A stretch of DNA of 64,000 bases from Dehalococcoidia bacterium (GTDB lineage Bacteria > Chloroflexota > Dehalococcoidia > GIF9 > UBA5629): NCBI GenBank assembly GCA_041653995.1, contig JBAZEK010000001.1:1030613-1094612 (forward strand), read 5' to 3'. Below are positions 31,030 through 62,109 of this stretch, in pieces; position 1 is the first letter of the stretch, and every line of letters starts with the position of its first letter. Under the pieces are notes generated by a model. It saw only the letters and a list, made by a program, of their open reading frames with translations, was not told where the DNA came from and did not search any database. Made by a program: the position numbers and the translations under genes.

Positions 31030-31038
31030 GATCTGGGT

Positions 31039-34532: not shown

Positions 34533-34558
34533 ACGGTCAATGTAGTGAGGCTGGGGAG

Positions 34559-36502: not shown

Positions 36503-36527
36503 GAAATTTCAAAAATGGAGACTGAAT

Positions 36528-36824: not shown

Positions 36825-36920
36825 GATAATAAAATAGTGGGAAAGGAAAGAGAAGGAAATTTAATTAGCTATCTATATTTAAGATAAGAGTGACTTATAG
36901 AACTTCATTGAGGTTGGGAG

Positions 36921-37451: not shown

Positions 37452-37511
37452 GGAACTGACTAAACCCCTGAAACTGGCAGCTCGAGTAAGAAAAATGGCG
37501 GGAAAGAAAAT

Positions 37512-39368: not shown

Positions 39369-39441
39369 ATAATTTCTTGATATTAAGAAATCGAGGTGTA
39401 CTGGTCTGAACCCCTGAAACTGGACAGCTTGAGTAAGAAAA

Positions 39442-39951: not shown

Positions 39952-40412
39952 GTGGTGCCCTCTGAAATCGCTCTGAGGGGCTGAAATCAGGGTGTTGCAT
40001 ATTGAACATGACGGATTCCACCTGTCATTACTATTCCAGCTTAATTAGAGCCTTTAAAGTATTAAACAGTAAAGGTAATAACTCTACTTCCTTTCCCTTA
40101 AGCCCCTTTATTATTTCTTCGCCTAAGTTTCCGTTCAAGTGAATTATGTCGCTTTTAAGACCAACAAACGCTGGTACACCATAAACACGTTTACGTTCAA
40201 GCCAATTATGTCGTTTTGCATATATTATTTCCAGCTTAAATTAACTACAGAAAAATGGGGCAAAAAGAGAAAAAGGGGAATTATATATCAATTTATTGTC
40301 AATAATCTTTGAAATACTATTACTTCATCTGAGAGAGATGCCAGCAGCTAAGTGTAACGGCATTGAATTTTAAATAACTTCTCAGCCCAAAGTGGTAACG
40401 CATATAGGTCTA

Positions 40413-40441
40413 TTGCATAAGTATTGTTCATATAATAGAAT
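40413..40441 (+). promoter_or_regulatory. promoter TTGCAT-17 nt-TAGAAT (copy B)
   Basis: Same hexamers and spacing as 34504-34532. Followed by an identical 5' UTR and signal-peptide coding sequence. Confidence 0.5.
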
Positions 40442-40467
40442 ACGGTCAATGTAGTGAGGCTGGGGAG

Positions 40468-41880: not shown

Positions 41881-41907
41881 AAGAAAATCAAAAGGGAGGT
41901 AAAGAAG

Positions 41908-42084
41908 ATGGTAGCAAATAAGAAGAAGTATTATGCAGGGGAATCAGCTAAAGTCTCTGGCAAATACAACGAATGCAGATTGGGCACAGGCAAAACAGGA
42001 GTAACAGCAAATGTCAAGAAGGGGGATACACTCCCACCACATAAAATAGGAGCTCATTGGGAGTTATCAAGAAAATCTAAATAA
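41908..42084 (+). CDS. small YjzC-like protein (58 aa)
   Basis: Not in the track (<60 aa). AAGGGAGG lies 8 nt upstream. 'GESAKVSGKYNE...VKKGDTLPPHKIGAHWEL' resembles the YjzC family pattern (from memory). Confidence 0.5.
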   Translation: MVANKKKYYAGESAKVSGKYNECRLGTGKTGVTANVKKGDTLPPHKIGAHWELSRKSK

Positions 42085-42316
42085 TATAGACATATTTAAG
42101 AAAGTGGTGACTTATAAAACTTCATGCTGTCCTGAAAGCTGAATGACCGAGTATATCTTTGCACCATAATAAAGTTCAGCCAAGGCACCGTTAAAATGTA
42201 CTACAGAATTGTTCTAAAGGGCCAAAATGGGGTATATAATATAGGGCATGACAGATTCTTCCTGCCTGAGCTTTTCAAGCTTAATTATTGAACAAATAAC
42301 TATGAAATCCTGATTG

Positions 42317-43081
42317 CTAACGAGGTAACTGATTTGAGCCGTTCACATCTTTGTAGACTTGAAGAGCATCCTCAAAGGATAAAGATTTTGAATACCTTTC
42401 AACCATAGAAATGCTTTCCCAACCGCCTAGATTTTGCACAATACGAGTGGATAACCCAGACTTAATATTGTGAATACAAAACCCTCTTCTATAGCTATGG
42501 GCGTTGGACTTAATGCCAGTTTCTTTAGACAATCGTTTAAGCATAGTTTTAATGCCAGCTCTTGATATTTCAAAACTATCATGCTCATCAAACCACTTTC
42601 CGATAACACCATTACCAGCTAAAGCCTTACGATACTTGTTACCCTTGCCCAGAATGGTTACTGTACCTTCACCCCAGTCAAAGTCTTTAGCGTGCACATT
42701 AGCACATTCACTCAGCCTTACTCCTGAGTACCATAAGAAACTAATTAATGCTCTATCACGTTCACAATGACAATGATTTATCAGAACTTCTAATTGTTCT
42801 TTTGATACCGCAGGCAATAGCTTCTTTTGAATTTTTGGGCTAGGAACTTTGTCAATAACCTTGTCGTGAATATAGCTATTGCTGTATAGCCATGAAATGA
42901 GAGTTTTGAGAGCTTGATAGAATCTTGCTTTGCCATTATGACAGGTAAGTGATTTTAGATAAGCATTAACTCCATCTGGACTTAGGGGATAACCAATAAA
43001 ATGAGTTAAAGTATATTCGTAAAATTCAATAGTTCGCTTACTACAACCATCGGGGCGAGAAGAAATAAACTTCTCCAACAA
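42317..43081 (-). CDS. tyrosine recombinase, C-terminal part of split integrase (Int-C)
   Basis: Catalytic residues in 'GVRLSE' (R), 'HSYRRGF' (HxxR) and 'MVERY' (Y). No ATG or SD (track start is TTG) and first Met codon is at residue 180. The frame stays open upstream through attR. Confidence 0.85.
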   Translation of the reverse strand: MLEKFISSRPDGCSKRTIEFYEYTLTHFIGYPLSPDGVNAYLKSLTCHNGKARFYQALKTLISWLYSNSYIHDKVIDKVPSPKIQKKLLPAVSKEQLEVLINHCHCERDRALISFLWYSGVRLSECANVHAKDFDWGEGTVTILGKGNKYRKALAGNGVIGKWFDEHDSFEISRAGIKTMLKRLSKETGIKSNAHSYRRGFCIHNIKSGLSTRIVQNLGGWESISMVERYSKSLSFEDALQVYKDVNGSNQLPR

Positions 43082-43143
43082 TTCTTTTGTGAACTTTTTG
43101 TAGCTAACTTGTGAATATTGTGAAATTGAGCTGTAGTTTTCTT

Positions 43144-43219
43144 TGGTGGGCGATACTGGATTTGAACCAGTGACCCCCTGTGTGTAAGACAGGTGCTCTA
43201 ACCGCTGAGCTAATCGCCC
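43144..43219 (-). tRNA. tRNA-Val (anticodon UAC), CCA encoded; integration target
   Basis: GGGCGATTAGCTCAGCGGTTAGAGCACCTGTCTTACACACAGGGGGTCACTGGTTCAAATCCAGTATCGCCCACCA. Anticodon loop CTTACAC. The 3' 51 nt form attR. Confidence 0.9.
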
Positions 43220-43226
43220 TGGGGAG

Positions 43227-43302
43227 TGGCACGCCTGGTGGGGCTTGAACCCACGGCCTCAGCCTCCGCAGGGCTGCGCTCTATCCACTGAGCTACAGGC
43301 GC
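43227..43302 (-). tRNA. tRNA-Arg (anticodon GCG), CCA encoded
   Basis: GCGCCTGTAGCTCAGTGGATAGAGCGCAGCCCTGCGGAGGCTGAGGCCGTGGGTTCAAGCCCCACCAGGCGTGCCA. Anticodon loop CTGCGGA. G1:U72 pair. Confidence 0.75.
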
Positions 43303-43308
43303 ATAAAA

Positions 43309-43397
43309 TGGTGCCGAAGGTGGGAGTTGAACCCACACATCCGTTACGGATACTACGCCCTGAACGTAGCGCGTCTGCCATTCCGCCACTTCGGCCC
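43309..43397 (-). tRNA. tRNA-Leu (anticodon CAG), long variable arm, CCA encoded
   Basis: GGGCCGAAGTGGCGGAATGGCAGACGCGCTACGTTCAGGGCGTAGTATCCGTAACGGATGTGTGGGTTCAACTCCCACCTTCGGCACCA. Confidence 0.9.
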
Positions 43398-43470
43398 TGG
43401 GCAGCACAGGATTTGAACCTGTGACCCCTTGCGTGTGAAGCAAGTGCTCTAACCGCTGAGCTAGCCGCCC
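43398..43470 (-). tRNA. tRNA-Val (anticodon CAC), CCA not encoded
   Basis: GGGCGGCTAGCTCAGCGGTTAGAGCACTTGCTTCACACGCAAGGGGTCACAGGTTCAAATCCTGTGCTGCCCA. Its discriminator base directly abuts the 5' end of tRNA-Leu. Confidence 0.9.
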
Positions 43471-43605
43471 TCTAACGCTATATTTTATTCTTTAACAAGG
43501 TTTAAAAGCAAGGCGAACCGCCCCGTACAATCATAGTTCATCAGGATTTATAAGCCCGCGCTGTGGACATCCCTCTACTCCAATGCATATAATTCAACTA
43601 CACCC

Positions 43606-44586: not shown

Positions 44587-45612
44587 ATGCAGCAATGGAT
44601 AAGATGCACCAGATGCGGCGCCAATAATGCTCCCGGACAGAAATTCTGTAACGCATGCGGTACACCCCTGCCGACCGTCTGCCCCAATTGCGGAACCCCG
44701 GCAGGTCCCGGCAGCACTTTCTGCGCCAGGTGCGGCATGACATTCAGCGGTATGCCCCAGCAGACCGGATATTACCCTCCGCAGCAGCCGGGATATCCTC
44801 AGCAACCTGGCTATCCGCAGCAACCGGCATATCCGCAACAGCCGGGCTATCCTCAGCAACCGGGCTATCCTCAGCAACCGGGCTATCCGCAACAGCCGGG
44901 ATACCCGCAACAGCCTGGATATCCGCAGCAGCCCCCCGGCTACCCGCCTCAACAGACCGGCTATTATCCTCCGCAGCAGCCGGGTTATCCTCCACAGCCG
45001 GGATATCCGCAGCAACCGCCCGGTTATCCGCCGCAGCCGGGATATCCGCAACAGCCCGGCTATCCCCAGCAACCGGGATATCCGCCGGGCTATCCTCCGC
45101 AGCAGCCGCCACGCGGAGCGTATCCGCCGGGCGCAAGGCCACCCCAGCAAGGCGGCGGCAAAGGCATGCTCATATTGCTGCTGGTTGTTCTGATTGCCGG
45201 CCTGGCAGGCTTCGGTTACTGGGCTTACAGCCAGGGCTACCTCAAGGGCATACTTAACTTCGGCAGCGATAACACCACCACCTCCACAGGGAAACAGAAG
45301 GACACTGTGCCGCCCACCATCAGCGGCGTAGAAGTTAGCGCCAAGGCCATAAACGAAGTCGGCATTATCTGGAAGACGGACAAGCCATCCAGTTCTCAGG
45401 TGGAATGGGGTCCCAAGGGATCGTTCGGCAACAAGACGACACTACAGGATGACCCCGTGAGCGGTACCAGCATCGGTGTCACCGATCACGGGGTTATCGT
45501 CAAGGGATTAACGGCAAATACTGAATACCAGTACCGTGTGTTATCACATACCGACGGCAACGTTGACGCCGTATCCGCCACCAATACTTTCACGACACCT
45601 TCGGCAGATTAA
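44587..45612 (+). CDS. double zinc-ribbon / PGYPQQ-repeat / TM / Fn3-like domain protein
   Basis: '[19 protein letters not shown]...[19 protein letters not shown]', 132-aa Pro/Gln/Tyr repeat, TM '[21 protein letters not shown]', and C-terminal '[16 protein letters not shown]...TEYQYRV'. Confidence 0.8.
44755..45150. repeat. 18-nt tandem repeat (P-G-Y-P-Q-Q) coding region
   Basis: About 20 degenerate copies of 'ccgggctatcctcagcaa'. This generates the long spurious ORFs in other frames and on the other strand. Confidence 0.9.
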
Positions 45613-45644
45613 CCCTCCTTTTCGCTGCGTTTACAGATTTTCTA

Positions 45645-46529
45645 ATGTATCAATCAACAGTACCCTGCCCTAAATGCGGCGCGCAGAACCTGCGGGGACA
45701 GTGGGTATGCGCGTACTGCGGAAATACGCTTGTCGTTTATTGTCCATCCTGCCATACCGGCAACGCCATCGACAGCCAGTATTGCCACGCCTGCCATGCA
45801 GTTCTCGCGTATACCGGCGTTCCGCCGGCTCAACCACAGTATCAACCCCAACCCCAGCAGCCTCAACCATATCCGCAGTACCCGCAATATCCTCCCGGGC
45901 AAACTGACCAGGGCCAGTACCCTCCGCAGTATCCACCCTACCCTCCACCCGGTTATCCACCACAGCAACCACCCTACCCGGACTACCAGGCCGGATACGG
46001 CCAGCCCGGCGATTATAAACCATACTCGGTTCACGGCGGCGAAGCCTACGCCGGAGGCGGGCTGGACGGCCTGATCGACAGGCTCAAAGAGTTCGTGCGC
46101 AATACCAATCCCATTCTCCTCTCTTCGCTGGTGGTGCTGGTAGTCGGTCTGACCATCTTCCTCATCCTGGCCTTCCAGTTCGGCTGGATCAAGACGGGTT
46201 CGGCGCCCAAAGTAGAAACAGTTAAAGATACCACAGCTCCTGTGATAACTTATTTAACTTATGAGCCCGGTGAAAATAGAAGCATTATAATAATTTGGGC
46301 AACCAATGAGCCAGCAAGTACGCGGGTCGAGTGGGGTATCGCACCTGTTTTCAACCAATTCACACTTATAGAAAACGATCCCCAAGTTGGCCAAGGTACA
46401 CTTTCACATAGGGTAACATTGACTAACCTGCTACCAAACACCAGCTATATTTACCGCGCAATATCATATGACAAAGCAGGGAACAAATGCATGAGTCCTA
46501 CTATGCCATTCCAAACTACGAACTACTAG
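45645..46529 (+). CDS. double zinc-ribbon / PQ-rich / TM / Fn3-like domain protein (paralogous architecture)
   Basis: 'CPKCGAQNLRGQWVCAYCG...CPSCHTGNAIDSQYCHACH', PQY-rich linker, TM 'ILLSSLVVLVVGLTIFLILAF', and 'IIIWATNEPASTRVEWG...TSYIYRA'. Confidence 0.8.
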   Translation: MYQSTVPCPKCGAQNLRGQWVCAYCGNTLVVYCPSCHTGNAIDSQYCHACHAVLAYTGVPPAQPQYQPQPQQPQPYPQYPQYPPGQTDQGQYPPQYPPYPPPGYPPQQPPYPDYQAGYGQPGDYKPYSVHGGEAYAGGGLDGLIDRLKEFVRNTNPILLSSLVVLVVGLTIFLILAFQFGWIKTGSAPKVETVKDTTAPVITYLTYEPGENRSIIIIWATNEPASTRVEWGIAPVFNQFTLIENDPQVGQGTLSHRVTLTNLLPNTSYIYRAISYDKAGNKCMSPTMPFQTTNY

Positions 46530-50990: not shown

Positions 50991-52187
50991 ATGCTGAGCA
51001 AAAGCAGGACCTCTGTCAGGGCCGTCGATGTCGACGATGTGCTTTCCGAGTGGCGTTCCAGGGCGGTCACGGTTTTAACTTACGTGGTTCTGATAGTGGC
51101 GCTGCCGGCATTTGCGATTTCAGCGTTCTCCATGTACGCGTCAAAATCCTGGGCCGCGTTTGTCGTGATGAGCGCGGCTTACCTGGGGATGATCGCGCTT
51201 GCCTTATTAAAAAAGATCGATTTCAGGTTGCGGGCCTGGGTGCTGATCACACTGGGCTATATGATGGCCGCGGTCAATTTATGGTATTTCGGGTCCGCGG
51301 GTTCCGCGCGCGTTTATCTCCTGGCATTACCCATTTTGGGATTCATTCTAATCGGTACGCGCACCGGATGGGTCACCACCGCCTTCAGCGCCCTGCTCTA
51401 CGCTGTTTTCTGCCTTCTTGACTATTACGCAATCCTCTCGCCCCGCTTATTGCCTCTCGATAGATTTGATTTGTTGAACTGGGTTACGACTGGTTTTACT
51501 ATGATGATGCTGCTGGTTATCATCGTGATCCTGCTGATACGCATGTACCGTTTCCTGATCAACACCCTGAGGAAAGAGCGTGTCCTTTCGGCCGAGCTGG
51601 AACAGACCTACGACGCGACTCTGGAGGGCTGGGCTACTGCACTGGAATATCGCGACCTTGAAACGGCCGGACACTGTCACCGCGTCAGCGCAATAACCAA
51701 AAGGCTGGCGGAGGCCGACGGCACGGGAGCGCTCGATATAATGGACGTCCATCGCGGCTCCCTTCTGCACGACGTCGGCAAAATGGGCATACCGGACAGC
51801 GTCCTGCTCAAGCCGGGCAAGCTCACCGATGAGGAATTCAAGCAGATGCAGCAGCATACAACCTATGCGTATGAACTGTTGTCCCATATACCCTATCTCA
51901 AACATGCGCTGGATATACCTTACTGCCACCACGAGAAATGGGATGGCAGCGGCTATCCGCGCGGGTTGAAGGGCACGGATATCCCCCTTTCGGCCCGCAT
52001 CTTCTCGGTGGTCGACGTCTACGATGCCCTCATCTCGGACCGCCCATACCGCAAAGCCTGGCAGGAAGAGAAGGCGATCGAATATATAAAAGAGAGATCG
52101 GGCAAAGATTTCGACCCGGCCGTGGTCCAGGCGTTTGTAAAGCTGGCCGAAGAGGAAACCGATTCGCTTTCCAGCAGCGAAGAATGA
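50991..52187 (+). CDS. membrane-anchored HD-GYP domain phosphodiesterase
   Basis: 5-6 TM helices, then 'HCHRVS', 'LLHDVGKMGIPDSVLLKPGKLT' and 'HHEKWDGSGYPRGL'. Confidence 0.85.
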   Translation: MLSKSRTSVRAVDVDDVLSEWRSRAVTVLTYVVLIVALPAFAISAFSMYASKSWAAFVVMSAAYLGMIALALLKKIDFRLRAWVLITLGYMMAAVNLWYFGSAGSARVYLLALPILGFILIGTRTGWVTTAFSALLYAVFCLLDYYAILSPRLLPLDRFDLLNWVTTGFTMMMLLVIIVILLIRMYRFLINTLRKERVLSAELEQTYDATLEGWATALEYRDLETAGHCHRVSAITKRLAEADGTGALDIMDVHRGSLLHDVGKMGIPDSVLLKPGKLTDEEFKQMQQHTTYAYELLSHIPYLKHALDIPYCHHEKWDGSGYPRGLKGTDIPLSARIFSVVDVYDALISDRPYRKAWQEEKAIEYIKERSGKDFDPAVVQAFVKLAEEETDSLSSSEE

Positions 52188-53479: not shown

Positions 53480-55312
53480 GTGAGGGTGAAACCGAATAGA
53501 TATGAAAAAGATCGATCTTTAAGTGAGGCATGGGCCGGCATCGACCGCGAGAGCTGTGATCAGCTGTTCAAATCGATATTTTTGAATTCCCCCATAGGTA
53601 AATACGTTGGGCAGAACGGCAAGTTCGTGCTCTTTAATCCTGCCTTTGAAAAGATCACCGGTCATAAGAAAGACGATCTCAGGGACATGCGCCATTTGAG
53701 CCTGGTCGTCCCGGCCGACAGGGAGCTCGTCAGAAGGAATGCCGTGCGCATGCTTAAAGGTTTGCGCAAAACACCCTACCGGTTCAGGGTATGTACGCGC
53801 ACGGGCGAGGTGCGCTGGATAATCGAGACAGTCGTGCCCATCGTGTACCGGGGCCGGCGCGCCGTCCTGGGCAATTCCACGGACATCACCAGCCAGAAAA
53901 ACCTGGGGGAGTCGTTTAAGGCAAGCGAGGAAAAATACCGCGCGCTGGTGGAGAATATCAACGACGTTTTATTCACGCTGGACACCAGGAAGACTATAAC
54001 TTATATAAGTCCGGTCGTAGAGCGCGTCACCAGCTATAAAGTTAAGGAATTGCTGGGACAACCCTTTACCTCATATGTACATCCGGATGACCTGCCGGGC
54101 CTGCTGGGCAGCTACAAACGCCTGCTGTCGGGGATAGTGGAGCCATGGGAATTCCGCCTGAAGGACAGGGACGGTGAAACCAGATTCGTGCGTTCCTCCA
54201 GCCGCCCGATCTACCGGGAAAAACGCATCGTGGGGGTTTCCGGCCTGATAACCGATATAACCGAGCACAGGAAAGCTGAGGACGAGCTTGTGAGATCCAA
54301 GAACCTGTTGCAGAACGTGATAGACGCCACTCCCGACTGGATGTGCGTCAAAGATTTCGAGCATAAATACATATTAGTCAACAAGAGCTTTGCTCAGGCT
54401 CAGCACCTTTCACCCCGGGATATGATAGGCAGGCCGGATACCGACTTCTTCGCGGAAGAGCTATGCGTGGGTAATCCGGGAAAAGGCATCGCGGGATTTC
54501 ACCATGACGACATGCAGGCCTTTCAGGGCCTCCTCGTGCAGAATCCCGGGACCGTTGTAACCTGGGCCGATAGCTCACAACATATTTACGATATATACAA
54601 TATCCCGTTGAGGGACAACTCGGGAAATGTGTACGCCGCCCTCACGTACAGCCGCGACTCCACAGAGAGACAGAAGGCGGAGGAAGAGCGCGAGGCATCC
54701 ATCAACGCCCTACAGAGGACTTTGCGGGCCCTGGTGGATACCATGGTCAAGGTGGTGGAGATGCGAGACCCATATACCGCCGAACACCAGCACCGGGTGG
54801 CCGACCTGGCGGGCGCCATTGCCAGGGAAATGAAGATGGATGAGCTGCGGATCGAACACCTGGTGATGGCGGCCAAAATCCACGATATCGGCAAGATGTA
54901 TGTGCCGTCGGATATACTCAGCAAGCCCGGCAAACTGACCGACACCGAACTGGACCTGATCAAGACGCATACCCTCGGCAGCTATTCCATACTGCGGGAC
55001 ATCGAGTTCTCCCGTCCCATCGCCTTAATGGTCCTGCAGCACCATGAAAGGCTGGACGGTTCCGGTTACCCCCGGGGATCGACGGGCAAAGAGATGCTGA
55101 CGGAGTCCAAGATACTGGCTGTGGCCGATGTGGTGGAAGCCATGTCGTCGCACCGCCCCTACAGAGCGGCGCTGGGTATAGATAAAGCCCTGAATGAAAT
55201 ATCAAAGAATCAAGGCAGGCTGTACGATCCCGAAGTTGTCGACGTCTGCCTGATGCTGTTTAAAGAGAAAGGATTTAAATTCGAGGACAGGTTCGTCTAC
55301 AGGGACCTGTAG
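53480..55312 (+). CDS. multi-PAS sensor with C-terminal HD-GYP domain
   Basis: Three PAS-like segments ('FEKITGHKKDDL', 'VERVTSYKVKEL', 'NKSFAQAQHLSPRDM'), then 'HQHRVA', 'KIHDIGKMYVPSDILSKPGKLT' and 'HHERLDGSGYPRG'. GTG start is uncertain. Confidence 0.8.
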   Translation: MRVKPNRYEKDRSLSEAWAGIDRESCDQLFKSIFLNSPIGKYVGQNGKFVLFNPAFEKITGHKKDDLRDMRHLSLVVPADRELVRRNAVRMLKGLRKTPYRFRVCTRTGEVRWIIETVVPIVYRGRRAVLGNSTDITSQKNLGESFKASEEKYRALVENINDVLFTLDTRKTITYISPVVERVTSYKVKELLGQPFTSYVHPDDLPGLLGSYKRLLSGIVEPWEFRLKDRDGETRFVRSSSRPIYREKRIVGVSGLITDITEHRKAEDELVRSKNLLQNVIDATPDWMCVKDFEHKYILVNKSFAQAQHLSPRDMIGRPDTDFFAEELCVGNPGKGIAGFHHDDMQAFQGLLVQNPGTVVTWADSSQHIYDIYNIPLRDNSGNVYAALTYSRDSTERQKAEEEREASINALQRTLRALVDTMVKVVEMRDPYTAEHQHRVADLAGAIAREMKMDELRIEHLVMAAKIHDIGKMYVPSDILSKPGKLTDTELDLIKTHTLGSYSILRDIEFSRPIALMVLQHHERLDGSGYPRGSTGKEMLTESKILAVADVVEAMSSHRPYRAALGIDKALNEISKNQGRLYDPEVVDVCLMLFKEKGFKFEDRFVYRDL

Positions 55313-55453
55313 CTACCGCCTGCCGATATCACCGCCATCTTTCTAAACCACTTTGCTTTCCTCTACGTTTTAATATTTGATCAATATTTGAGCTGTATAC
55401 TGTTTATGTAAACAGCTTAAGATGGTCAATTATAGTGCGCAGGACGTAGATAA

Positions 55454-55651
55454 ATGCTGAAGAATTTGTACTGCCCCAGGTGCATGGCGCGGGTTATGTG
55501 CGGTGAGAGATTCTGTGGGAATTGCGGTGCAAACCTTGTATGGGCGGTGCGGCCGGCACAGTCAGGTGTGCCTGTGACGCCCATCAGCAAGGATATCTCC
55601 AGATTACTGGCAGACTTCGAGAAGCATATTAAATACAGCCATTCCAACTGA
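55454..55651 (+). CDS. small zinc-ribbon protein
   Basis: 65 aa: 'YCPRCMARVMCGERFCGNCGANLVW'. Confidence 0.5.
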   Translation: MLKNLYCPRCMARVMCGERFCGNCGANLVWAVRPAQSGVPVTPISKDISRLLADFEKHIKYSHSN

Positions 55652-55751
55652 AGTAATACACCGCCCGTTTAAGTTTAAGAGTTGCATAATAAGGAAGCGC
55701 TGACCGGGTCGATGCGATCAGCGCTTCCCTGTTTTATAAGACGTCAGGCTG

Positions 55752-56180
55752 CTACGGCATGGGCGGCGGGGGTGGCATGGTGCCGGGGAAGGGGCCGGGG
55801 AACGGGCCGGGGAACGGAGCGGGCCGCGGCGCCGGGTATGAACGATACGGGTAGTTATACCAGGGTGTGCCGTAGGAGTAGGTCCGGTAATAGATAACGG
55901 TGGGTTGATAGGCCGGCTGCGCAGAAGTTACATACGTATTCTGCTGCCGCAGTTTGGCCTGGGCTTCAGCCAGCGATTGCTGGGTAGTATTCAGTTGCTG
56001 CTGGGTTGAAGACAACTGCTGCTGTGTAGAGTTCAGCGAGTTGTTGAGTGAGTTCACCTGGCCTTGCAGGGCCATGTACTGCTCGCTGCTTATACCAGTG
56101 GAAATGCAACCCGCAGACATCACCGTCATCAGCAATACGACTGATAGAACCGCGATAATTGCTGTCTTTTTCATTTTCAC
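55752..56180 (-). CDS. lipoprotein with Gln-rich coiled coil and Pro-rich tail
   Basis: Signal 'AIIAVLSVVLLMTVMSAGC'. 'LNSTQQQLSSTQQQLNTTQQSLAEAQAKL'. GGAGG upstream. Confidence 0.6.
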   Translation of the reverse strand: MKMKKTAIIAVLSVVLLMTVMSAGCISTGISSEQYMALQGQVNSLNNSLNSTQQQLSSTQQQLNTTQQSLAEAQAKLRQQNTYVTSAQPAYQPTVIYYRTYSYGTPWYNYPYRSYPAPRPAPFPGPFPGPFPGTMPPPPPMP

Positions 56181-56281
56181 CTCCTTTTTCTTAGCATAAA
56201 GGAGGTGAACTCAGTATGCTTGACGGCAATCTGACAAGTTACTGATATCAGGCTAACAAATTATCGATCGAGGCTGAATTG

Positions 56282-57880
56282 TCACGGGGTTACGCTCACG
56301 GTGACCGTGGCGTTATCAGTCCCGTAGCTGTTGATGGCGGTCAAGGTAAAGCTGGTGGTTTCAGCCGGCGATACAGCCTGCGTGTATTTCGAGGCTGGAA
56401 CGCCGATGCCCTGGTCAATAATGTATAAAGTAGCGCCATTCACATTCCAGGAAAGGTTGGATGTCCCGCCCTGAGAAATGCCGGTAGGCGTGGCCGTGAA
56501 AGATCTTATTATCGGCGCAGTGCCGTCGGTTAAAACGCCTACCGCAACCGTGACTTCCTTCTTTACGGAGCCGAACGTGTTGACCGCGGTCAGCTCATAA
56601 GTGGTGGAAGCGGTCGGTATCACCTTCGTCCAGCCGGAAGACGGTACGCTGCCGACATTCGGGCTGATAGAGACTGTCCTGGCCGCATCGACCGTCCAAT
56701 TGAGTGTCACCTCCTCCCCCAGCATGATCGAATTGTTGCTTACGGAGAAGGTTTTAATCCGGGGCGGGTCTTTGGTCAGCGCCGGACCGGTGCTCAGGCT
56801 GGAAGCATCCACGCTGATAGTGACCGTCCTGGTTACCGAGCCGTAGTCGCTGTCGGCCCTCAATGTATATACTGCGGTCTCGGAGGGCGTTATTCTGACC
56901 GTACCCTTTAAGGCCACGCCGCCGATGCCCGGACTGATATTAATCGATTTCGCGCCGATGATATCCCATGCCAGCGTCGCTTCGTCGCCGGCTTTAATCG
57001 AGGACGGGCTGGCGCTGAAGATCGTGATGATGGGCGTCTTGGATGTGCTTACCTCCAGCGCGGCTGAAGCGGTTGTATTGCCGTTGATATTGGCCGCCGT
57101 CAGCACATAGCGGGTGGTCGCTCCCGGGGAAACGACTTTCGATCCGGTCGAAGATACGGTTCCCACCTCCGGCTGGATGGAAACCGATGTTGCGCCGGAG
57201 ACGTTCCAGGATAAAGTGGACGTCTGCCCCACATAGATACCGCCAGGGCTGGCAACAAAGCTGTTGACCGTCGGCGGCTTGCCGGTGACCTCAACGGTTA
57301 TCTCCCTGCTCACAGAGCCGCCGAAACGGCTATCGGCGGTCAGCTTATAGGTAGTGGTTTCATCCGGCGACATTTTCTTTGTTCCGCTGAAAGACACCGT
57401 CCCTATGCCGGGGCTGATGGAGACGGCGGTTGCCTCGCCGACATCCCACTGTAAAGTCACCTCCTGGCCGGATATAATCGTAGATGAACTGGCCTCGAAA
57501 GCTGTAATAACCGGCGGCGCAAACAGTTTTTCAATATCTCCCTTCAAAGCAACGCCCGTGACGATAAGCGCTGTAACAACAAGCAAGGCAGAGGCTATAG
57601 CAATAGTCTTTGTCCGGTTATCTTTTATCCGCTGCAGCAGTTTCGATACGACGCTATTATTCGGCGGTTGTTCCTGTCCCTGCGAATCCTGACCCGCCCA
57701 TTGATTACCTTCCTGCGACTGATACCATTGCTGCTGCTGATCATGCCGGGAATCGTATGACTGGGACTGGCCCTGCGTCTGGGATCCCTGCCAGTTGAGG
57801 ACGGTTTTGCAGTATGAGCACTGCGCCTGTCCGTAGACGACAGGTGTGTTGCAGTAGGGGCAGTAATACATTTGCTGCAT
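56282..57880 (-). CDS. zinc-ribbon / Gln-rich / TM / 5x Ig-like repeat surface protein
   Basis: 'MQQMYYCPYCNTPVVYGQAQCSYCKTVLNW', TM 'IAIASALLVVTALIVTGVAL', and five ~80-aa repeats with core 'TLSWNVSGATSVSI.P..G.V...G...V.P..TT.Y.LTA'. Confidence 0.85.
   Translation of the reverse strand: MQQMYYCPYCNTPVVYGQAQCSYCKTVLNWQGSQTQGQSQSYDSRHDQQQQWYQSQEGNQWAGQDSQGQEQPPNNSVVSKLLQRIKDNRTKTIAIASALLVVTALIVTGVALKGDIEKLFAPPVITAFEASSSTIISGQEVTLQWDVGEATAVSISPGIGTVSFSGTKKMSPDETTTYKLTADSRFGGSVSREITVEVTGKPPTVNSFVASPGGIYVGQTSTLSWNVSGATSVSIQPEVGTVSSTGSKVVSPGATTRYVLTAANINGNTTASAALEVSTSKTPIITIFSASPSSIKAGDEATLAWDIIGAKSINISPGIGGVALKGTVRITPSETAVYTLRADSDYGSVTRTVTISVDASSLSTGPALTKDPPRIKTFSVSNNSIMLGEEVTLNWTVDAARTVSISPNVGSVPSSGWTKVIPTASTTYELTAVNTFGSVKKEVTVAVGVLTDGTAPIIRSFTATPTGISQGGTSNLSWNVNGATLYIIDQGIGVPASKYTQAVSPAETTSFTLTAINSYGTDNATVTVSVTP
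56285..57517. repeat. five tandem ~240-nt coding repeats (Ig-like domain)
   Basis: Periodic protein motif as described for the CDS. Confidence 0.8.
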
Positions 57881-58106
57881 GATATATTTTTACTTCCGTC
57901 ACAGAGGTAAGTCAAGCTGTATAAATAGTCCGGTGTGCCGGGATTGTTCGATCTTCTCCCTGTGGTTGACGAAGCTTAGCATAATGCATAGTCCGGGCCG
58001 GGTCAACTCATTCTCAGATAAGGACGCCATTGCTTTCGTGCCCTTAATAAATCCTTTATAATTTGCACATAAACTATTACATATATGACAAAAGTGAAGA
58101 TTTGTT

Positions 58107-60068
58107 ATGCAGCAAATGTACTCTTGTCCAAACTGTAGAGCGCTTATTCAGTATGGACAGCCGTATTGCAGCAACTGCGGTATGACCTTTAATTGGCCTC
58201 CTCCACAACCGCCTCCTTACCCATACCCCAACCAGCAATATATGTACGGCAATCAGGGGGCTATGCCGCCCGGGAAAAGCTCGATGGGCGGTTTTGTCTG
58301 GTTTATTGTGATATTGCTGATCGTCGGCGGAGCGATCGGCGGCTTCTATTACGCTACGAACGGAGATGTCTTGAAATGGTTCACCCCACCCTCCGTAACA
58401 TCCTTCGACGCCAGTCCCAAGTCCATCACGTCGGGAGGGACGGCAACATTAAACTGGGCCGTCATGGGGGCTCAATCGGTCTCCATCAGCCCCGACATCG
58501 GGACCGTGTCATCCAGCGGTTCGCAGGCTGTGAATCCTGATAAAACGACCGAGTACACACTGACCGCCTCCAATTTATCCGGCTCCTCCCGCGCCTGGGC
58601 CACCGTTACAGTTACAGCTCCGAGCAAGCCGGCCATCAGCAGCTTCAGTTCCAATCCGGGCACTATCACCGCCGGGCAGTCGGCCACATTATCATGGAAT
58701 GTTACGGGGGCAACCTCGGTTTCCATCAGTCCCGCTGTCGGCAACGTATCATCGAGCGGCTCAAAGACAGTGACACCCACCGAGACAACCAGCTACACGA
58801 TCACCGCCGTCAACGACGCCGGCTCGTCTACAACAACAGCCAAAGTTACGGTGAATCCGTCCGGACCACCGACGATCGCCAGTTTTACAGCCAGCCCGGC
58901 CTCTATCACCTCAGGCGGGAGTTCGACGCTGTCCTGGACCGTCAGCGGCGCAACCTCTGTTACCATTAACCAGGGTGTGGGCACAGTATCGACTTCCGGA
59001 ACCAGGTCGGTATCGCCCTCCACCACAACCACCTACACCCTTACAGCCGGCAACAGCCTGGGCAGCTCCACCGCGACGGCCGCTGTCACGGTCACGGCGG
59101 CAGGCATACCCGTCATAACCATATTCACCGCCAGCCCGTCGCCGATTACCGCAGGGGACAATATGACACTGTCGTGGACCGTAACGGGGGCGACAACGAT
59201 CAATATCTTGCCAGGTGTCGGAACAGTATCGGCAACAGGAACGCGCACTCTGATCCCCGCTGCGACCACCACCTATACGCTAACCGCCACCAACACTAAC
59301 GGCCCGGCGACCGCGACAGCGACGGTGACGGTGGCTTCGGAAGGCCCACCGGTAATCAGCTCGTTTTACCCATCTCCCGTCACCGTTACCTCCGGATCGT
59401 CTTCGACACTGCACTGGACTGTTGCGGATGCGACGGAGGTATCCATTACCCCCGGCATCGGCGTCGTATCTGCCACCGGATTAGAGACGGTAACGCCTTT
59501 ATCCACAACCACCTATGTATTAACCGCCTTTAACAGCCACGGCACAATCACGGCGACGACCGCTGTCACAGTGGCCCCGGCAGGCTATCCCGCGATCAGC
59601 TTCTTCAATGCCGTCCCGGCCTCGGTCGCGTCGGGACAATCGACAACGTTATCATGGACCGTCACTGGGGCGAGCACGGTCTCCATCAACCAGGGCATAG
59701 GCGCCGTTTCGGCCTCGGGTTCCAGGACAATAACTCCCGCCGCCACCACCACATACACAATTACCGCAACCAACGGCTCCGGCTCTGTTGCTGCTTCAGC
59801 TACGGTAACCGTAACGACAACCTCAGGTACGCCTCCGGTAATAGATTCTTTCGGAGCTTCGCCCACTACCATCTCGCCCGGAGGATCATCGCTGCTGAAC
59901 TGGTCCATAACGGGAGCAACTTCCATCTCAATCGAACCCGATATAGGCGAGCCATCATCGTGGGGCTATCAGGACGTATATCCCACGGAGACCACGACTT
60001 ATACCCTGACCGCCTTCAACAGCGCGGGTTCGGATACAGCCACAGTGACCGTGACGGTAACTCCCTGA
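58107..60068 (+). CDS. zinc-ribbon / Pro-rich / TM / 7x Ig-like repeat surface protein
   Basis: 'MQQMYSCPNCRALIQYGQPYCSNCGMTFNW', TM 'FVWFIVILLIVGGAIGGFYY', and seven 80-aa repeats of the same family. Confidence 0.85.
   Translation: MQQMYSCPNCRALIQYGQPYCSNCGMTFNWPPPQPPPYPYPNQQYMYGNQGAMPPGKSSMGGFVWFIVILLIVGGAIGGFYYATNGDVLKWFTPPSVTSFDASPKSITSGGTATLNWAVMGAQSVSISPDIGTVSSSGSQAVNPDKTTEYTLTASNLSGSSRAWATVTVTAPSKPAISSFSSNPGTITAGQSATLSWNVTGATSVSISPAVGNVSSSGSKTVTPTETTSYTITAVNDAGSSTTTAKVTVNPSGPPTIASFTASPASITSGGSSTLSWTVSGATSVTINQGVGTVSTSGTRSVSPSTTTTYTLTAGNSLGSSTATAAVTVTAAGIPVITIFTASPSPITAGDNMTLSWTVTGATTINILPGVGTVSATGTRTLIPAATTTYTLTATNTNGPATATATVTVASEGPPVISSFYPSPVTVTSGSSSTLHWTVADATEVSITPGIGVVSATGLETVTPLSTTTYVLTAFNSHGTITATTAVTVAPAGYPAISFFNAVPASVASGQSTTLSWTVTGASTVSINQGIGAVSASGSRTITPAATTTYTITATNGSGSVAASATVTVTTTSGTPPVIDSFGASPTTISPGGSSLLNWSITGATSISIEPDIGEPSSWGYQDVYPTETTTYTLTAFNSAGSDTATVTVTVTP
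58386..60065. repeat. seven tandem 240-nt coding repeats (Ig-like domain)
   Basis: 560 aa / 7 = 80-aa period. Each unit contains 'S.L.W.V.GA..V.I..G.G.VS..G...V.P...TTY.LTA.N'. Confidence 0.85.
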
Positions 60069-60379
60069 CGTTTTGAACCTGCAATACGTTTGCGTTCAAC
60101 TAAAAACCGGTATAGCTATAGCGAACCAATCATTACAGGGAATCGCTATAATCCGGTGCACTTATACAGCGATGGAACCCGGCAATAACCGGATGCTACT
60201 TCTTCTTGGCTGTGCCCTTTTTAGCTTTGGTCGGCTTACCCTTTGTCTTCGGCGGATTGTGAGCAGCGCACGTCTTGCACATAATATCCTCCTCGCCTTG
60301 AAGCTGTCTCCTTACTTCCGATAATAGTTATTCCGTTTAAAGCTGTCAAATTAAAAGGCATACATACTTAAAAGGTCGA

Positions 60380-61465
60380 TCAAGGGGTGCATGTGATGGT
60401 AAAACTCGCCTGGTTCGACATCATCGGCAACGGGGTAAGGATGCTCACCCTTTCCCAGTACGTGACATTGGAGGCCACATAGATCATCCAGCTCGTTGAT
60501 ACGGTCTTGGTGCCGGCCGCGCTGAAGACGAGGGTCTCCACCGGGCCTGTCGCGCCGTCGATACGCTCCCATCTATATGTTACCGTGCAGGGCCCGTCGA
60601 CAGTGATATCAGCGGACGTGGTAACAGTTTTCGGGCACGGGCCGGTATAGTTGGACGGATTTGCCGTAGCTACAGCGCTTGTCACCTTGGGAGGACCCGA
60701 CCAGCCGCCTCCACCGGGCGGAGTTGCGGGAGGCGGTGTTATCGGTACCGGCGTCCCTACCACAAATGTTCCGACCTGGACTGTTTTTGTAGCTGTCCCA
60801 CCACAGCCGGTGGCTGTCAGTACATAGGTTGTAGAAGTTGTCGGATAAACCACGCGTGAGCCCGGTGACCCCACTTCACCGAAGCCGCCGGGTGAAAGAA
60901 CAACAGAATTCACCAGTTCCCCCGACGTTCCGTTGGTTACCGGACCCCATTCCAGTGTAACCGCCTTGCCGGATTCAACAAAACCGGGATTCGCCTCAAA
61001 ATGGGAAAAAATAGGTGCTCCGGGACATCCGGCGGGCGAGGGTTGCTGCGGTTGGCCCGGTTGCGATGGCTGTTGCGGCTGGCCCGGTTGCGACGGTTGC
61101 TGCGGCGTCCCTGTTCCTGCCACTTCAACCATAACCTCGCGTCTGAGCACAGTGCTGCCTATATCTATCATAAGAGCATAGACGGTGGATTCGGACGGGC
61201 ATACCTGCTTCTGGCCGGAGGCATTCACCGGTTGGCCTTGCAGTTCCACTCCAAAGAAACCTTCGCCCTGAATACTCCAGTTCAGATTAACGCATTCTCC
61301 CGGCTGAATAGTGTTTCTGTCCGTTGTGAAAACTATTTGCGGTTCCCCGGGGGGCTGAGCGCCCTGCGGCGTGCCCGGAGCAACTTCACTTCCTCCCCGG
61401 CATGTGCAGCTGACAGTGGCCAGCATGATCGCAATAAGCACTACAGCAAATACACTTCTACACAT
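60380..61465 (-). CDS. lipoprotein with two Ig-like domains of the same family, PQQPSQPGQ linker and distinct C-terminal domain
   Basis: Signal 'VVLIAIMLATVSCTC'. 'VNLNWSIQGEGFFGVEL...STVYALM' and 'VTLEWGPV...TSTTYVLTA'. Confidence 0.75.
   Translation of the reverse strand: MCRSVFAVVLIAIMLATVSCTCRGGSEVAPGTPQGAQPPGEPQIVFTTDRNTIQPGECVNLNWSIQGEGFFGVELQGQPVNASGQKQVCPSESTVYALMIDIGSTVLRREVMVEVAGTGTPQQPSQPGQPQQPSQPGQPQQPSPAGCPGAPIFSHFEANPGFVESGKAVTLEWGPVTNGTSGELVNSVVLSPGGFGEVGSPGSRVVYPTTSTTYVLTATGCGGTATKTVQVGTFVVGTPVPITPPPATPPGGGGWSGPPKVTSAVATANPSNYTGPCPKTVTTSADITVDGPCTVTYRWERIDGATGPVETLVFSAAGTKTVSTSWMIYVASNVTYWERVSILTPLPMMSNQASFTITCTP
61041..61105. repeat. 27-nt tandem repeat (2.4 copies) encoding PQQPSQPGQ
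   Basis: 'ggttgctgcggttggcccggttgcgat' / 'ggctgttgcggctggcccggttgcgac' / 'ggttgctgcgg'. Confidence 0.85.
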
Positions 61466-61683
61466 TTCAAAACCTCCTCAGTATCATAGCAGTGTGCTGA
61501 GTCCCGACAATACAAACCCGTTAAGGACATATTAAAAGAAATCCCTGGAATCGGCAATCAAGACGATGGTCCCGGCTGATAGAACGTATGATCGGCCTGC
61601 TGACCGCCGGGATTGATTAATGCCGGAGGCAAGATCCCGTTATTGACACCGGGACACATCAGAATCTACAATACTTATCTGAA

Positions 61684-62109
61684 ATGCCGATTGCTTCTTA
61701 TACGCATACCATTGCCACTGTGCTGGGCTTTATTTGCGCGATAGTCTGCGCCGCCCTCATGCTGAACTTGAAGACGGATGAGCAGAGGCTTAAAAGGGCG
61801 CGCATCGCACGTCGCATAGCGCCTGTAACCTGGGTCGCCTTTATCGCGCTTATTATCAGCGGAATCTTTCTGGCCCTGGACAAGAATGACCTCAATGTCT
61901 ATGTATTGGGAGCGAAGCACCTGCTGGTGTTAATACTGCTGGTCGACGCCCTGCTGATTCACTTCCGCTATTTCCCGCGATTTTTCAAACAGATCGGATC
62001 ACCCGAGTTCGCTAAAACATACACGGTGATGCGCCGCATCGGCGCACTGTCCGTTTCCTGCTGGATCATCATCCTTGTGCTTTCGGTCCTGCTTGACCGT
62101 TTGACTTAG
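61684..62109 (+). CDS. integral membrane protein (4 TM), function unknown
   Basis: 141-aa hydrophobic ORF. Confidence 0.5.
   Translation: MPIASYTHTIATVLGFICAIVCAALMLNLKTDEQRLKRARIARRIAPVTWVAFIALIISGIFLALDKNDLNVYVLGAKHLLVLILLVDALLIHFRYFPRFFKQIGSPEFAKTYTVMRRIGALSVSCWIIILVLSVLLDRLT

What the first reader, a model, noticed from the sequence alone, without database searches (positions are those of the whole stretch)
56282..60068. Divergently transcribed paralogues with 5 and 7 tandem 80-aa Ig-like repeats
The two genes start 226 nt apart on opposite strands. They share the head MQQMY.CP.C.....YGQ..CS.C...(L/F)NW and a TM helix. They then carry 5 versus 7 copies of the unit '(P)..I..F.A.P..I..G...TLSW.V.GA..V.I.P.(I/V)G.V...G...V.P...T.Y.LTA.N..G......V.V'. 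Copy-number difference between paralogues implies unequal recombination within the arrays. The same unit occurs twice in the adjacent lipoprotein (60380..61465) and once in the Trp/Cys-repeat lipoprotein at 5138..7201, so it is a genome-wide building block for the cell surface. I cannot assign it confidently to a named family (it may be PKD-, Big- or HYR-like).
Basis: seen in the sequence. Interest (0 to 1): 0.55.

Follow-up and report, generated by a model that had tools for sequence, protein, structure and literature searches.

The report
Zinc-ribbon-anchored Ig-repeat surface protein pair
Two neighbouring, oppositely oriented genes of an uncultured Dehalococcoidia bacterium encode old paralogous membrane proteins, each with a small zinc-binding head inside the cell and a rod of 5 or 7 immunoglobulin-like domains outside. 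The pair is real but is an ordinary kind of cell-surface protein, and the repeat numbers are fixed rather than actively changing.

Summary
ORF A (56282..57880, -, 532 aa) and ORF B (58107..60068, +, 653 aa) start 226 nt apart. They share a 4-Cys zinc-ribbon head and a TM helix, and carry 5 and 7 copies of an ~80-aa unit. The unit recurs twice in the lipoprotein at 60380..61465 and once in the protein at 5138..7201.

AlphaFold2 folds the unit as an Ig-like beta-sandwich (pLDDT 96.9). It is about equally distant from I-set Ig and PKD domains, and no Pfam or NCBIfam model covers it. Its profile still hits about 39,000 of 1.84 billion protein-cluster representatives, so it is a common bacterial Ig-like domain without a family model in these libraries.

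The inference of unequal recombination is not supported:
- Units are only 31-60% (protein) and 45-63% (DNA) identical.
- No DNA tandem repeat is detectable.
- Each array position has its own conserved signature.
- Every complete A orthologue found has 5 units and every intact B orthologue has 7.
- The 226-nt spacer is two separately conserved upstream regions. In five related genomes a lipoprotein gene separates them.

Best reading: N-in/C-out surface stalk or adhesion proteins of a monoderm. The architecture is well supported; the function is inferred. This is a new member of a known kind, of low to moderate interest.

The parts
56282..57880 (-). Gene A (532 aa; NCBI MFA5399840.1, 'hypothetical protein'): zinc ribbon, Q-rich linker, TM helix, 5 Ig-like units
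   Evidence: ORF; units. Full-length AF2 model: ribbon pLDDT 77-86, disordered 32-94, helix 78-119, five confident beta-sandwich domains. Exact match in the public record.
57788..57880 (-). A zinc-ribbon head, aa 1-31 (C7, C10, C21, C24)
   Evidence: CxxC-x10-CxxC. C7, P8, C10, G17, Q18, C21, C24 and W30 are invariant in 33 orthologues. These are the only Cys in the protein. Weak Pfam zinc-ribbon hits.
57536..57604 (-). A transmembrane helix, about aa 93-115, preceded by the basic juxtamembrane stretch LLQRIKDNRTK
   Evidence: Hydropathy maximum. AF2 helix 89-119. Positive charges on the N-side are read from the sequence.
56285..57517 (-). A array of 5 units: A1 57278..57517, A2 57038..57277, A3 (plus 10-aa linker) 56768..57037, A4 56519..56767, A5 56285..56518
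   Evidence: Unit boundaries. HMM E-values 1e-31 to 1e-33. AF2 domains.
57881..58106 (.). 226-nt spacer made of two blocks: an A-proximal block (~57881..57945, with TTGACT-18-AAAAAT on the minus strand) and a B-proximal block (~57974..58106, with TATAAT at 58057..58062)
   Evidence: Sequence; consensus scan. The B-proximal ~130 nt is conserved in 5 genomes whatever the upstream gene. The A-proximal ~60 nt is conserved in L001, L004 and L005. No Rfam match.
58107..60068 (+). Gene B (653 aa; NCBI annotates only 601 aa from Met53, MFA5399841.1): zinc ribbon, P-rich linker, TM helix, 7 Ig-like units
   Evidence: ORF. The head is conserved in orthologues P0002 and P0004 and in more than 50 family members. 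The truncated NCBI model is seen.
58107..58199 (+). B zinc-ribbon head, aa 1-31
   Evidence: Pfam Zn_ribbon_3 E 1.3e-4, 21.7 bits against a cut-off of 27. Four Cys only.
58290..58358 (+). B transmembrane helix, about aa 62-84 (GGFVWFIVILLIVGGAIGGFYYA)
   Evidence: Hydropathy maximum; sequence.
58386..60065 (+). B array of 7 units: B1 58386..58625, B2 58626..58865, B3 58866..59105, B4 59106..59345, B5 59346..59585, B6 59586..59831, B7 59832..60065
   Evidence: E 1e-30 to 1e-34. AF2 of B3: pLDDT 96.9. The ectodomain is 38.6% Ser+Thr and only 4.8% charged.
55752..56180 (-). Coiled-coil lipoprotein (142 aa; lipobox MSAGC, Q-rich coiled coil, Pro/Tyr-rich tail), 101 nt downstream of A on the same strand; likely co-transcribed
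   Evidence: ORF. Weak Lpp/OprI alanine-zipper and coiled-coil hits. Found 53-115 nt downstream of A in L001 and L004-L008, and 1.2 kb downstream in L009.
60380..61465 (-). Lipoprotein-like protein (361 aa, MFA5399842.1) with two diverged copies of the unit (about 61115..61333 and 60773..61015)
   Evidence: HMM E 2.8e-8 and 1e-12. Among the related loci it is present only in L007 (84% identity), so it is a variable neighbour.
6695..6913 (+). Single copy of the unit inside the 5138..7201 repeat lipoprotein
   Evidence: HMM E 2.2e-16; sequence.

Best explanation
A and B are old paralogous single-pass membrane proteins of a Dehalococcoidia bacterium.

**Architecture.** Each has a cytoplasmic N-terminal 4-Cys zinc ribbon (about 30 aa) and a disordered Q- or P-rich linker. 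One TM helix follows, and then an extracellular unbranched rod of 5 (A) or 7 (B) Ig-like beta-sandwich domains that ends at the C-terminus. At about 4 nm per Ig domain (general knowledge), the rods would reach roughly 20 and 28 nm from the membrane.

**Proposed mechanism.**
- The folded zinc ribbon and the basic juxtamembrane segment stay in the cytoplasm and fix an N-in/C-out topology without a cleaved signal peptide.
- The Ig rod acts as a stalk, spacer or adhesive element in the envelope of a monoderm.
- The membrane-proximal units (A1/B1, A2/B2) and the tip unit (A5/B7) are the parts retained between the paralogues. The tip carries conserved exposed aromatic residues (KY..Q in A5, W.Y in B7) and is a candidate contact site.
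- A probably forms a small envelope operon with the downstream coiled-coil lipoprotein, and in many relatives also with an upstream lipoprotein.

**Repeat number.** It is a fixed, lineage-old property of each paralogue (5 and 7), not a variable array.

**Shown:** gene structure, domain fold, head conservation, fixed copy numbers, synteny.

**Inferred:** zinc binding, topology, surface location, and the structural or adhesive role.
For: **Architecture**
- ORFs and units.
- AF2 of unit B3: pLDDT 96.9, 8 beta strands.
- Full-length A model: ribbon (pLDDT 77-86), disordered 32-94, helix 78-119, five confident domains.

**Head**
- The only four Cys sit in CxxC-x10-CxxC.
- C7, P8, C10, G17, Q18, C21, C24 and W30 are invariant in 33 A orthologues that are as little as 41% identical overall.
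- The same head occurs in more than 50 family members, sometimes duplicated.

**Fixed arrays**
- 5 units in all complete A orthologues and 7 in all intact B orthologues.
- Position-specific profiles discriminate between positions.
- No DNA repeats.

**Paralogue collinearity.** B1 matches A position 1 (111 bits), B2 matches position 2 (109) and B7 matches position 5 (105.5).

**Envelope context**
- Coiled-coil lipoprotein directly downstream of A in L001 and L004-L008, and 1.2 kb downstream in L009.
- Extra lipoprotein directly upstream of A in 5 relatives.
- The same unit occurs in lipoprotein-type proteins, both in this window and with lipoprotein signal peptides in homologues.
- Two more zinc-ribbon/TM/FN3-like proteins lie in the same window.

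**Organism.** Dehalococcoidia MAG. Chloroflexota are currently regarded as monoderms. The cultured Dehalococcoides and Dehalogenimonas are reported to lack peptidoglycan, and S-layers occur in cultured Dehalococcoidia (PMC10284905).
Against: - There is no experimental or annotation evidence for any function. Every source calls these proteins hypothetical.
- Topology and zinc binding are inferred from sequence only. Pfam zinc-ribbon scores are below the curated cut-offs.
- More distant orthologues have different neighbours: ABC transporter, 2',5'-RNA-ligase-like protein, GGDEF or HD-GYP proteins. No conserved partner supports a specific role.
- The head is conserved more strictly than a passive anchor would seem to need, which leaves room for a signalling or partner-binding role.
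- AF2 says nothing reliable about rod rigidity (pTM 0.37).
Confidence: 0.6

Rival explanations
1. Transmembrane sensors or signal transducers. The Ig array senses an extracellular or envelope cue, and the conserved zinc ribbon binds or releases a cytoplasmic partner. This would resemble S. aureus TcaA or a zinc-binding anti-sigma factor.
For: - The head is conserved very strictly across the family.
- One homologue (P0112) carries FHA-domain Pfam hits together with the same Ig array, so the array can be coupled to a signalling module.
- A PAS/HD-GYP gene lies convergent to the A operon here and in L001, L004-L006, L008 and L010, and one lies near P0079.
- TcaA is described as a TM protein with an intracellular metal-binding motif, a large extracellular domain and a suspected sensor role (PMC1687195).
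Against: - The NCBIfam TcaA model matches only the first 45 aa at E 0.39, 9.5 bits against a cut-off of 550.
- The heads contain no His, so the ZAS anti-sigma motif H-x3-C-x2-C is absent.
- No sigma factor or kinase domain was found among the neighbours that were scanned.
- The HD-GYP neighbour is missing in L007 and in several other orthologue loci. It is convergently oriented, so it is not co-transcribed with A.
- The cytoplasmic part is only a 30-aa ribbon plus a disordered linker of very variable length.
Confidence: 0.2
2. One reading: the arrays are dynamic and change unit number by unequal recombination. The 5 versus 7 difference would then reflect recent or ongoing length variation (contingency-type surface variation).
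For: The paralogues differ in count, and across the wider zinc-ribbon family subfamilies carry 5, 6, 7 or 8 units. Gains or losses have therefore happened at some time.
Against: - Units share only 45-63% DNA identity.
- TRF finds nothing at score 30, and there is no repeat of at least 18 nt above about 80% identity.
- Counts are invariant in all intact orthologues down to 38% identity.
- Each position has its own conserved signature.
- Even the 10-aa insertion between units 3 and 4 of A is conserved.
Confidence: 0.03
3. Substrate-binding accessory proteins. The beta-sandwich units would act as carbohydrate- or ligand-binding modules that hold polymers or a partner cell at the surface, rather than as inert stalk domains.
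Against: These structural scores are no better than those for generic Ig or PKD domains. A and B have no catalytic or known binding domain. No conserved aromatic platform is shared by all units.
Confidence: 0.07

Closest known systems
Bacterial surface proteins built from tandem Ig-like (Big/PKD-type) domains, e.g. intimin/invasin, Leptospira Lig proteins, and PKD repeats of the archaeal S-layer protein (PDB 1L0Q)
   Different: No Big_1, Big_2 or PKD Pfam model reaches its threshold on the units. The anchor is an N-terminal zinc ribbon plus TM helix, not a beta-barrel, LPXTG motif or lipid anchor. No lectin or C-terminal effector domain is present; the protein ends with the last Ig unit.
Eukaryotic I-set immunoglobulin domains (titin, obscurin, receptor phosphatases; Pfam PF07679)
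   Same: They share the F-G hairpin motif Y-x-(C/L)-x-A-x-N-x-x-G and the overall sandwich. They give the best sequence hits in the PDB (titin, E 7e-10 summed) and the best Foldseek hits (TM about 0.7).
   Different: Only the last ~30 residues align. A single unit scores 17.9 bits against the cut-off of 23.7. There is no Cys-Cys pair, and the unit is ~80 aa rather than ~90-100. The resemblance is at the level of fold and motif, not family membership.
Zinc-ribbon/TM/ectodomain proteins of monoderm bacteria, e.g. S. aureus TcaA
   Same: N-terminal intracellular metal-binding CxxC...CxxC motif, one TM helix and a large extracellular domain (PMC1687195). The same plan recurs in this window at 44587..45612 and 45645..46529.
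   Different: The ectodomain is unrelated. The TcaA NCBIfam model matches only the ribbon, at E 0.39. No link to glycopeptide or cell-wall stress is known here.

Membership tests
Pfam I-set (PF07679) | Match over the whole ~90-position domain model above the gathering score | tested here: not met
   Matches cover only profile positions about 61-90. A single unit scores 17.9 bits against the cut-off of 23.7. Whole-protein scores pass only by summing partial hits.
Pfam I-set (PF07679) | Ig beta-sandwich fold | tested here: met
Pfam I-set (PF07679) | Core B-F disulfide (Cys...Cys) | tested here: not met
   There is no Cys anywhere in the ectodomains.
PKD domain (PF00801) | Significant match to the PKD model | tested here: not met
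   Only 14 of 95 units give any hit; the best E is 4.8e-4, below threshold.
PKD domain (PF00801) | PKD-like fold | tested here: inconclusive
Bacterial Ig-like Big_1, Big_2, Big_3_5, Big_9 and He_PIG families | Significant match to the family model | tested here: not met
   Only 2-7 of 95 units give weak hits (E 1e-2 to 6e-5), and none is consistent.
Zinc-ribbon (Pfam Zn_ribbon_3 PF13248, Zn_Ribbon_1 PF13240, DZR PF12773) | Four Cys as CxxC-x(8-20)-CxxC in a ~25-aa N-terminal module | tested here: met
   C7, C10, C21 and C24 in both proteins; invariant in 33 and 44 aligned homologues. AF2 pLDDT 77-86.
Zinc-ribbon (Pfam Zn_ribbon_3 PF13248, Zn_Ribbon_1 PF13240, DZR PF12773) | Score above the Pfam gathering threshold | tested here: not met
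   B scores 21.7 bits against 27 (E 1.3e-4); A scores 11.5 bits. Orthologue P0004 carries a precomputed PF13248 hit.
Zinc-ribbon (Pfam Zn_ribbon_3 PF13248, Zn_Ribbon_1 PF13240, DZR PF12773) | Actual zinc binding | not testable with these tools
   Needs metal analysis of the purified head.
TcaA family (NCBIfam NF053815) | Full-length match to the equivalog model | tested here: not met
   E 0.39, 9.5 bits against a cut-off of 550; residues 4-48 only.
ZAS-type anti-sigma factors | H-x3-C-x2-C motif and an adjacent ECF sigma gene | tested here: not met
   There is no His in either ribbon (residues 1-31 of A and B). No sigma-factor domain was found in the neighbours that were scanned.
Variable (contingency-type) tandem-repeat surface genes | Near-identical DNA repeats and copy-number differences between close relatives | tested here: not met
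   TRF finds nothing. DNA identity between units is 45-63%. Counts are fixed at 5 and 7 in all intact orthologues.

The most novel reading that the evidence does not exclude
In Dehalococcoidia lineages that lack peptidoglycan, these zinc-ribbon-anchored rods could be the elements that tie the cytoplasmic membrane to the proteinaceous outer layer (S-layer). Their strictly fixed lengths (5 and 7 Ig domains, about 20 and 28 nm) would then act as molecular rulers that set the width of the pseudo-periplasm. The conserved tip domains (A5/B7) would dock to the outer layer, and the conserved zinc ribbon would couple the rod to a cytoplasmic partner.
Probability: 0.1. Interest if true: 0.6.

Novelty: new member of a known kind. 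Interest (0 to 1): 0.25.

Why it matters
The result is mostly clarifying. An apparently dynamic repeat locus turns out to be a pair of old, stable paralogues of an ordinary type, namely tandem Ig-like surface proteins.

Two points have modest value.
1. The ~80-aa unit belongs to a very large bacterial domain family. Its profile hits about 39,000 50%-identity cluster representatives, with arrays of up to 47-48 copies. Neither the Pfam nor the NCBIfam copy used here has a model that covers it, so its members are labelled only by spurious partial 'I-set' hits. It is a candidate for a curated family.
2. The architecture (zinc ribbon, disordered linker, TM helix, fixed-length Ig rod) is conserved across uncultured Dehalococcoidia. 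The envelope of these organisms is poorly understood, so these proteins are reasonable targets for anyone studying it.

The NCBI gene model for B also starts 52 codons too late and loses the zinc ribbon.

Tried and rejected
1. **Head-only search.** A profile search with the zinc-ribbon head alone was meant to find other ectodomains attached to the same head. The 44-aa version returned only 218 candidates and one 49-aa hit. This was uninformative and used one capped search.
2. **Structure prediction with alignment A5.** It was repeated successfully with A6.
3. **AFDB50 fold search.** Unavailable.
4. **Rfam scan of 55300..61700.** No match at E<=1, so the conserved B-upstream block does not match any RNA family in Rfam.
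5. **Promoter and terminator scans.** Only weak consensus matches, with terminator-like sites at the level expected by chance. Nothing is claimed from these beyond positions.
6. **Context of distant orthologues (P0079, P0101, P0039).** No neighbour is conserved across all of them. The recurring PAS/HD-GYP neighbour was considered as a functional link. It was set aside as probable inherited synteny, because it is convergent and absent in several loci.
7. **Literature searches.** No paper on this family was found. The searches gave only context on TcaA and on Dehalococcoidia envelopes.
8. **M4 as the true start codon.** Rejected. Many homologues have MQSTF, MQYTY or MEQIY with no second Met, and the B orthologues carry a synonymous CAG>CAA change in codon 2.

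Full report
**1. The observation**

The ORF listing returns ORF A at 56282..57880 (-) with 532 aa and ORF B at 58107..60068 (+) with 653 aa. The gap between their ATGs is 226 nt.

Both proteins begin with MQQMY-x-CP-x-C-x10-C-x2-C-x5-W. A low-complexity linker (Q-rich in A, P-rich in B) and one strongly hydrophobic segment follow.

Anchoring on the L-x-W motif splits A into 5 units and B into 7. The period is 80 aa in B, apart from an 82-aa unit 6. In A a 10-aa insertion follows unit 3. I built an HMM from the 12 units and ran it over a six-frame translation of the whole window.
- It recovers all 12 units at independent E-values of 1e-30 to 1e-34. Because the profile was built from these units, those scores are partly circular. 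The repeat is independently evident from the alignment itself, which has 12 invariant columns.
- It finds two diverged copies in the 60380..61465 lipoprotein (2.8e-8 and 1e-12).
- It finds one copy in the 5138..7201 protein (2.2e-16), and nothing else.

**2. What the unit is**

Sequence libraries do not place it:
- Pfam has no model that covers it. The I-set model aligns only to the last ~30 residues (the Y-x-L-x-A-x-N-x-x-G hairpin), and a single unit scores 17.9 bits against a cut-off of 23.7.
- PKD, He_PIG, Big_x and DUF7927 give scattered sub-threshold hits in a minority of 95 diverse units.
- NCBIfam gives nothing meaningful.
- A profile search of PDB sequences again finds only the titin-type F-G hairpin.

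The fold is clear. AlphaFold2 on unit B3, with a 95-sequence alignment of units, gives pLDDT 96.9 and an eight-strand sandwich.
- Foldseek against the PDB ranks titin/obscurin I-set domains first, but only at E about 1e-3 and TM about 0.7. An archaeal S-layer PKD domain and the Deinococcus HPI S-layer also appear in the list.

The unit is thus a generic, cysteine-free Ig-like domain, about equally distant from several named families.

It is far from rare. The 95-unit profile hits 39,318 of 1.84 billion cluster representatives at E<=1e-3 and 5,204 at E<=1e-30. Arrays reach 47-48 copies in proteins of 4,000-5,400 aa.

**3. Whole-protein architecture**

A full-length AF2 model of A, using 32 orthologues, shows the following:
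- a small structured N-terminal ribbon (pLDDT 77-86);
- a disordered stretch (aa 32-94, pLDDT below 50);
- a long helix, aa 78-119, that includes the TM segment;
- five separately confident beta-sandwich domains, with one disordered linker at aa 361-369.

The only cysteines in either protein are C7, C10, C21 and C24. Among 33 A-type orthologues that fall to 41% overall identity, C7, P8, C10, G17, Q18, C21, C24 and W30 are invariant.

The segment before A's TM helix is basic (QRIKDNRTK). Together with a Cys4 metal site, which belongs in the reducing cytoplasm, and the absence of a signal peptide, this argues for an N-in/C-out topology. That topology is an inference.

B's ectodomain is 38.6% Ser+Thr and only 4.8% charged.

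NCBI annotates B from Met53 (601 aa), which omits the ribbon. The conserved head in P0002, P0004 and more than 50 family members shows that the longer ORF is right.

**4. Source and relatives**

The window matches a 1.28-Mb contig of a Dehalococcoidia MAG. A is MFA5399840.1, B is MFA5399841.1 and the lipoprotein is MFA5399842.1. All three are named hypothetical.

A search of one genome per species found 71 loci. Full-length A orthologues (residues 1-532 matched, 38-79% identity) occur only in Dehalococcoidia, Dehalococcoidales and other Chloroflexota MAGs. The bare repeat also occurs in Acidobacteriota (Bryobacterales), Verrucomicrobiota, Patescibacteria and others.

**5. Are the arrays dynamic?**

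No. Four lines of evidence agree.
- **Divergence.** Within the window, units share 31-60% protein and 45-63% codon-aligned DNA identity. TRF reports no tandem repeat in 56200..60100 even at score 30. The longest direct DNA repeats are 21-38 nt at 66-81% identity.
- **Fixed counts.**
  - Every complete A orthologue has exactly 5 units with the same spacing, including the insertion after unit 3. This covers about 18 genome loci and about 45 metagenome proteins.
  - Every intact B orthologue has 7: P0001-P0004, L001/L002, L005, L007 and L008.
  - L006 has 1+6 units split over two ORFs, which looks like a frameshift.
- **Position identity.** Profiles built per array position from A orthologues score 118-139 bits on their own position and 60-89 bits on the others. 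Each position has therefore evolved independently since before these species diverged, and there has been no concerted evolution.
- **Deep time only.** Against these profiles B1 matches position 1 (111 bits), B2 matches position 2 (109) and B7 matches position 5 (105.5). B3-B6 have no clear counterpart. The paralogues thus share their membrane-proximal and distal ends and differ in an old, diverged middle. Zinc-ribbon subfamilies with 5, 6, 7 or 8 units do exist.

**6. Gene neighbourhood and the spacer**

The direct divergent A/B arrangement, with a gap of 224-226 nt, is seen in the window, L005 and L007. In L001/L002 and L008, A and B are 1 kb apart because a 236-aa lipoprotein gene lies 65 nt upstream of A on A's strand. 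The same gene precedes A in L004, L009 and L019.

An alignment of the regions upstream of B shows about 130 nt conserved in all five genomes, whatever lies beyond. This block includes TATAAT at 58057..58062, which ends 44 nt before the ATG. The roughly 60 nt next to A (TTGACT-18-AAAAAT) is separately conserved in L001, L004 and L005. The spacer is therefore two back-to-back upstream regions, not one shared bidirectional element. No Rfam family matches.

A 142-aa coiled-coil lipoprotein (55752..56180, -) lies 101 nt downstream of A. It is conserved in the same position in L001 and L004-L008, and lies 1.2 kb downstream in L009. The two-unit lipoprotein at 60380..61465 is variable and occurs only in L007.

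More distant orthologues have other neighbours: an ABC transporter, a 2',5'-RNA-ligase-like protein, and PAS-HD-GYP or GGDEF proteins. No partner is conserved universally.

**7. Mechanism**

The best-supported reading is a pair of type-II-anchored surface stalk or adhesion proteins of a monoderm.
- The zinc ribbon and basic juxtamembrane segment hold the N-terminus in the cytoplasm.
- The Ig rod would be about 20 nm (A) and 28 nm (B), assuming about 4 nm per domain (general knowledge). It projects into the envelope.
- The distal unit is conserved between the paralogues and has conserved aromatic residues. It is the likeliest contact surface.

On context, Chloroflexota are currently regarded as monoderms, and the cultured Dehalococcoides and Dehalogenimonas are reported to lack peptidoglycan. 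S-layers occur in cultured Dehalococcoidia, and Tepidiforma has about 40 nm between the membrane and the S-layer (PMC10284905). This leaves open, but does not show, a role as a membrane-to-S-layer spacer.

The main rival is a TcaA-like sensor (PMC1687195). The strict conservation of the head and one homologue with FHA-domain Pfam hits (P0112) favour it. The lack of any TcaA, ZAS or sigma-factor signal weakens it.

**8. Comparison and novelty**

The pair works like the many bacterial and archaeal surface proteins built from tandem Ig-like, Big or PKD domains. Its anchor resembles the zinc-ribbon/TM proteins common in monoderms. Two further examples with FN3-like ectodomains lie at 44587..46529 in this window.

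It fails the membership tests for I-set, PKD, Big_x and TcaA. It is therefore a new member of a known kind, built from a large domain family that has no curated model in these libraries.

**Verdict**
- Observation: confirmed.
- Interpretation: partly supported.
- Recombination claim: not supported.
- Interest: low to moderate (0.25).

Noticed in passing
window 44587..45612 (+) and 45645..46529 (+): Two tandem paralogues. Each has an N-terminal double zinc ribbon (Pfam DZR/Zn_Ribbon_1, E about 1e-7 to 1e-12), a long YPQQPG-type Pro/Gln-rich linker, a TM helix and an FN3-like (Pur_ac_phosph_N) ectodomain. This is the same building plan as A and B with a different ectodomain.
   Followed up: partly
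window ~31000..43500: A low-GC island (35% against about 54%). It ends at a tyrosine recombinase gene (42317..43081, -), next to a cluster of four tRNA genes (Val, Arg, Leu, Val; 43144..43470, -). It carries a Rep-like protein (32529..33026), a Cas4/PD-(D/E)XK nuclease (33166..33858) and three AhpC/TSA-redoxin fusion proteins (34508..36502 with a WD40 propeller, 37512..39368, and 40468..41880 with FN3). It looks like an integrated mobile element.
   Followed up: partly
window 58107..58262: The public NCBI gene model for B (MFA5399841.1, 601 aa) starts at Met53 and omits the conserved zinc ribbon. JGI aa.
   Followed up: yes
L001 7066..7776 (-); also L004, L008, L009, L019: A 227-236-aa lipoprotein gene with no Pfam match lies 40-65 nt upstream of A in five related genomes. 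It is absent from the window, L005 and L007. Gain or loss of this gene creates or destroys the direct A/B divergent arrangement.
   Followed up: partly
window 53480..55312 (+) and 50991..52187 (+): Two HD-GYP-type (HD_5) proteins lie close by. A PAS-PAS-HD protein is convergent with the A operon; it is conserved next to A in L001, L004-L006, L008 and L010, and weakly in L020 and L025. The second is a MASE11-HD_5 protein. A link between c-di-GMP signalling and these surface proteins is possible but untested.
   Followed up: partly
window 5138..7201 (+): A lipoprotein with five copies of a ~100-aa W/C-containing repeat (WxGTWxCG...GW...GxxxGxxLxGTW...SxDGxxFxG). One Ig-like unit is inserted before the last copy. 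No Pfam family matches.
   Followed up: no
L006 634..2643 (-): The B orthologue in this MAG is split into two ORFs: zinc ribbon plus 1 unit, then 6 units. This is a frameshift or an assembly error. The total is still 7 units.
   Followed up: no
window 57974..58106: About 130 nt upstream of B is conserved almost base for base across five genomes, more strongly than nearby coding sequence at synonymous sites would suggest. There is no Rfam match. It could hold regulatory sites beyond a core promoter.
   Followed up: partly
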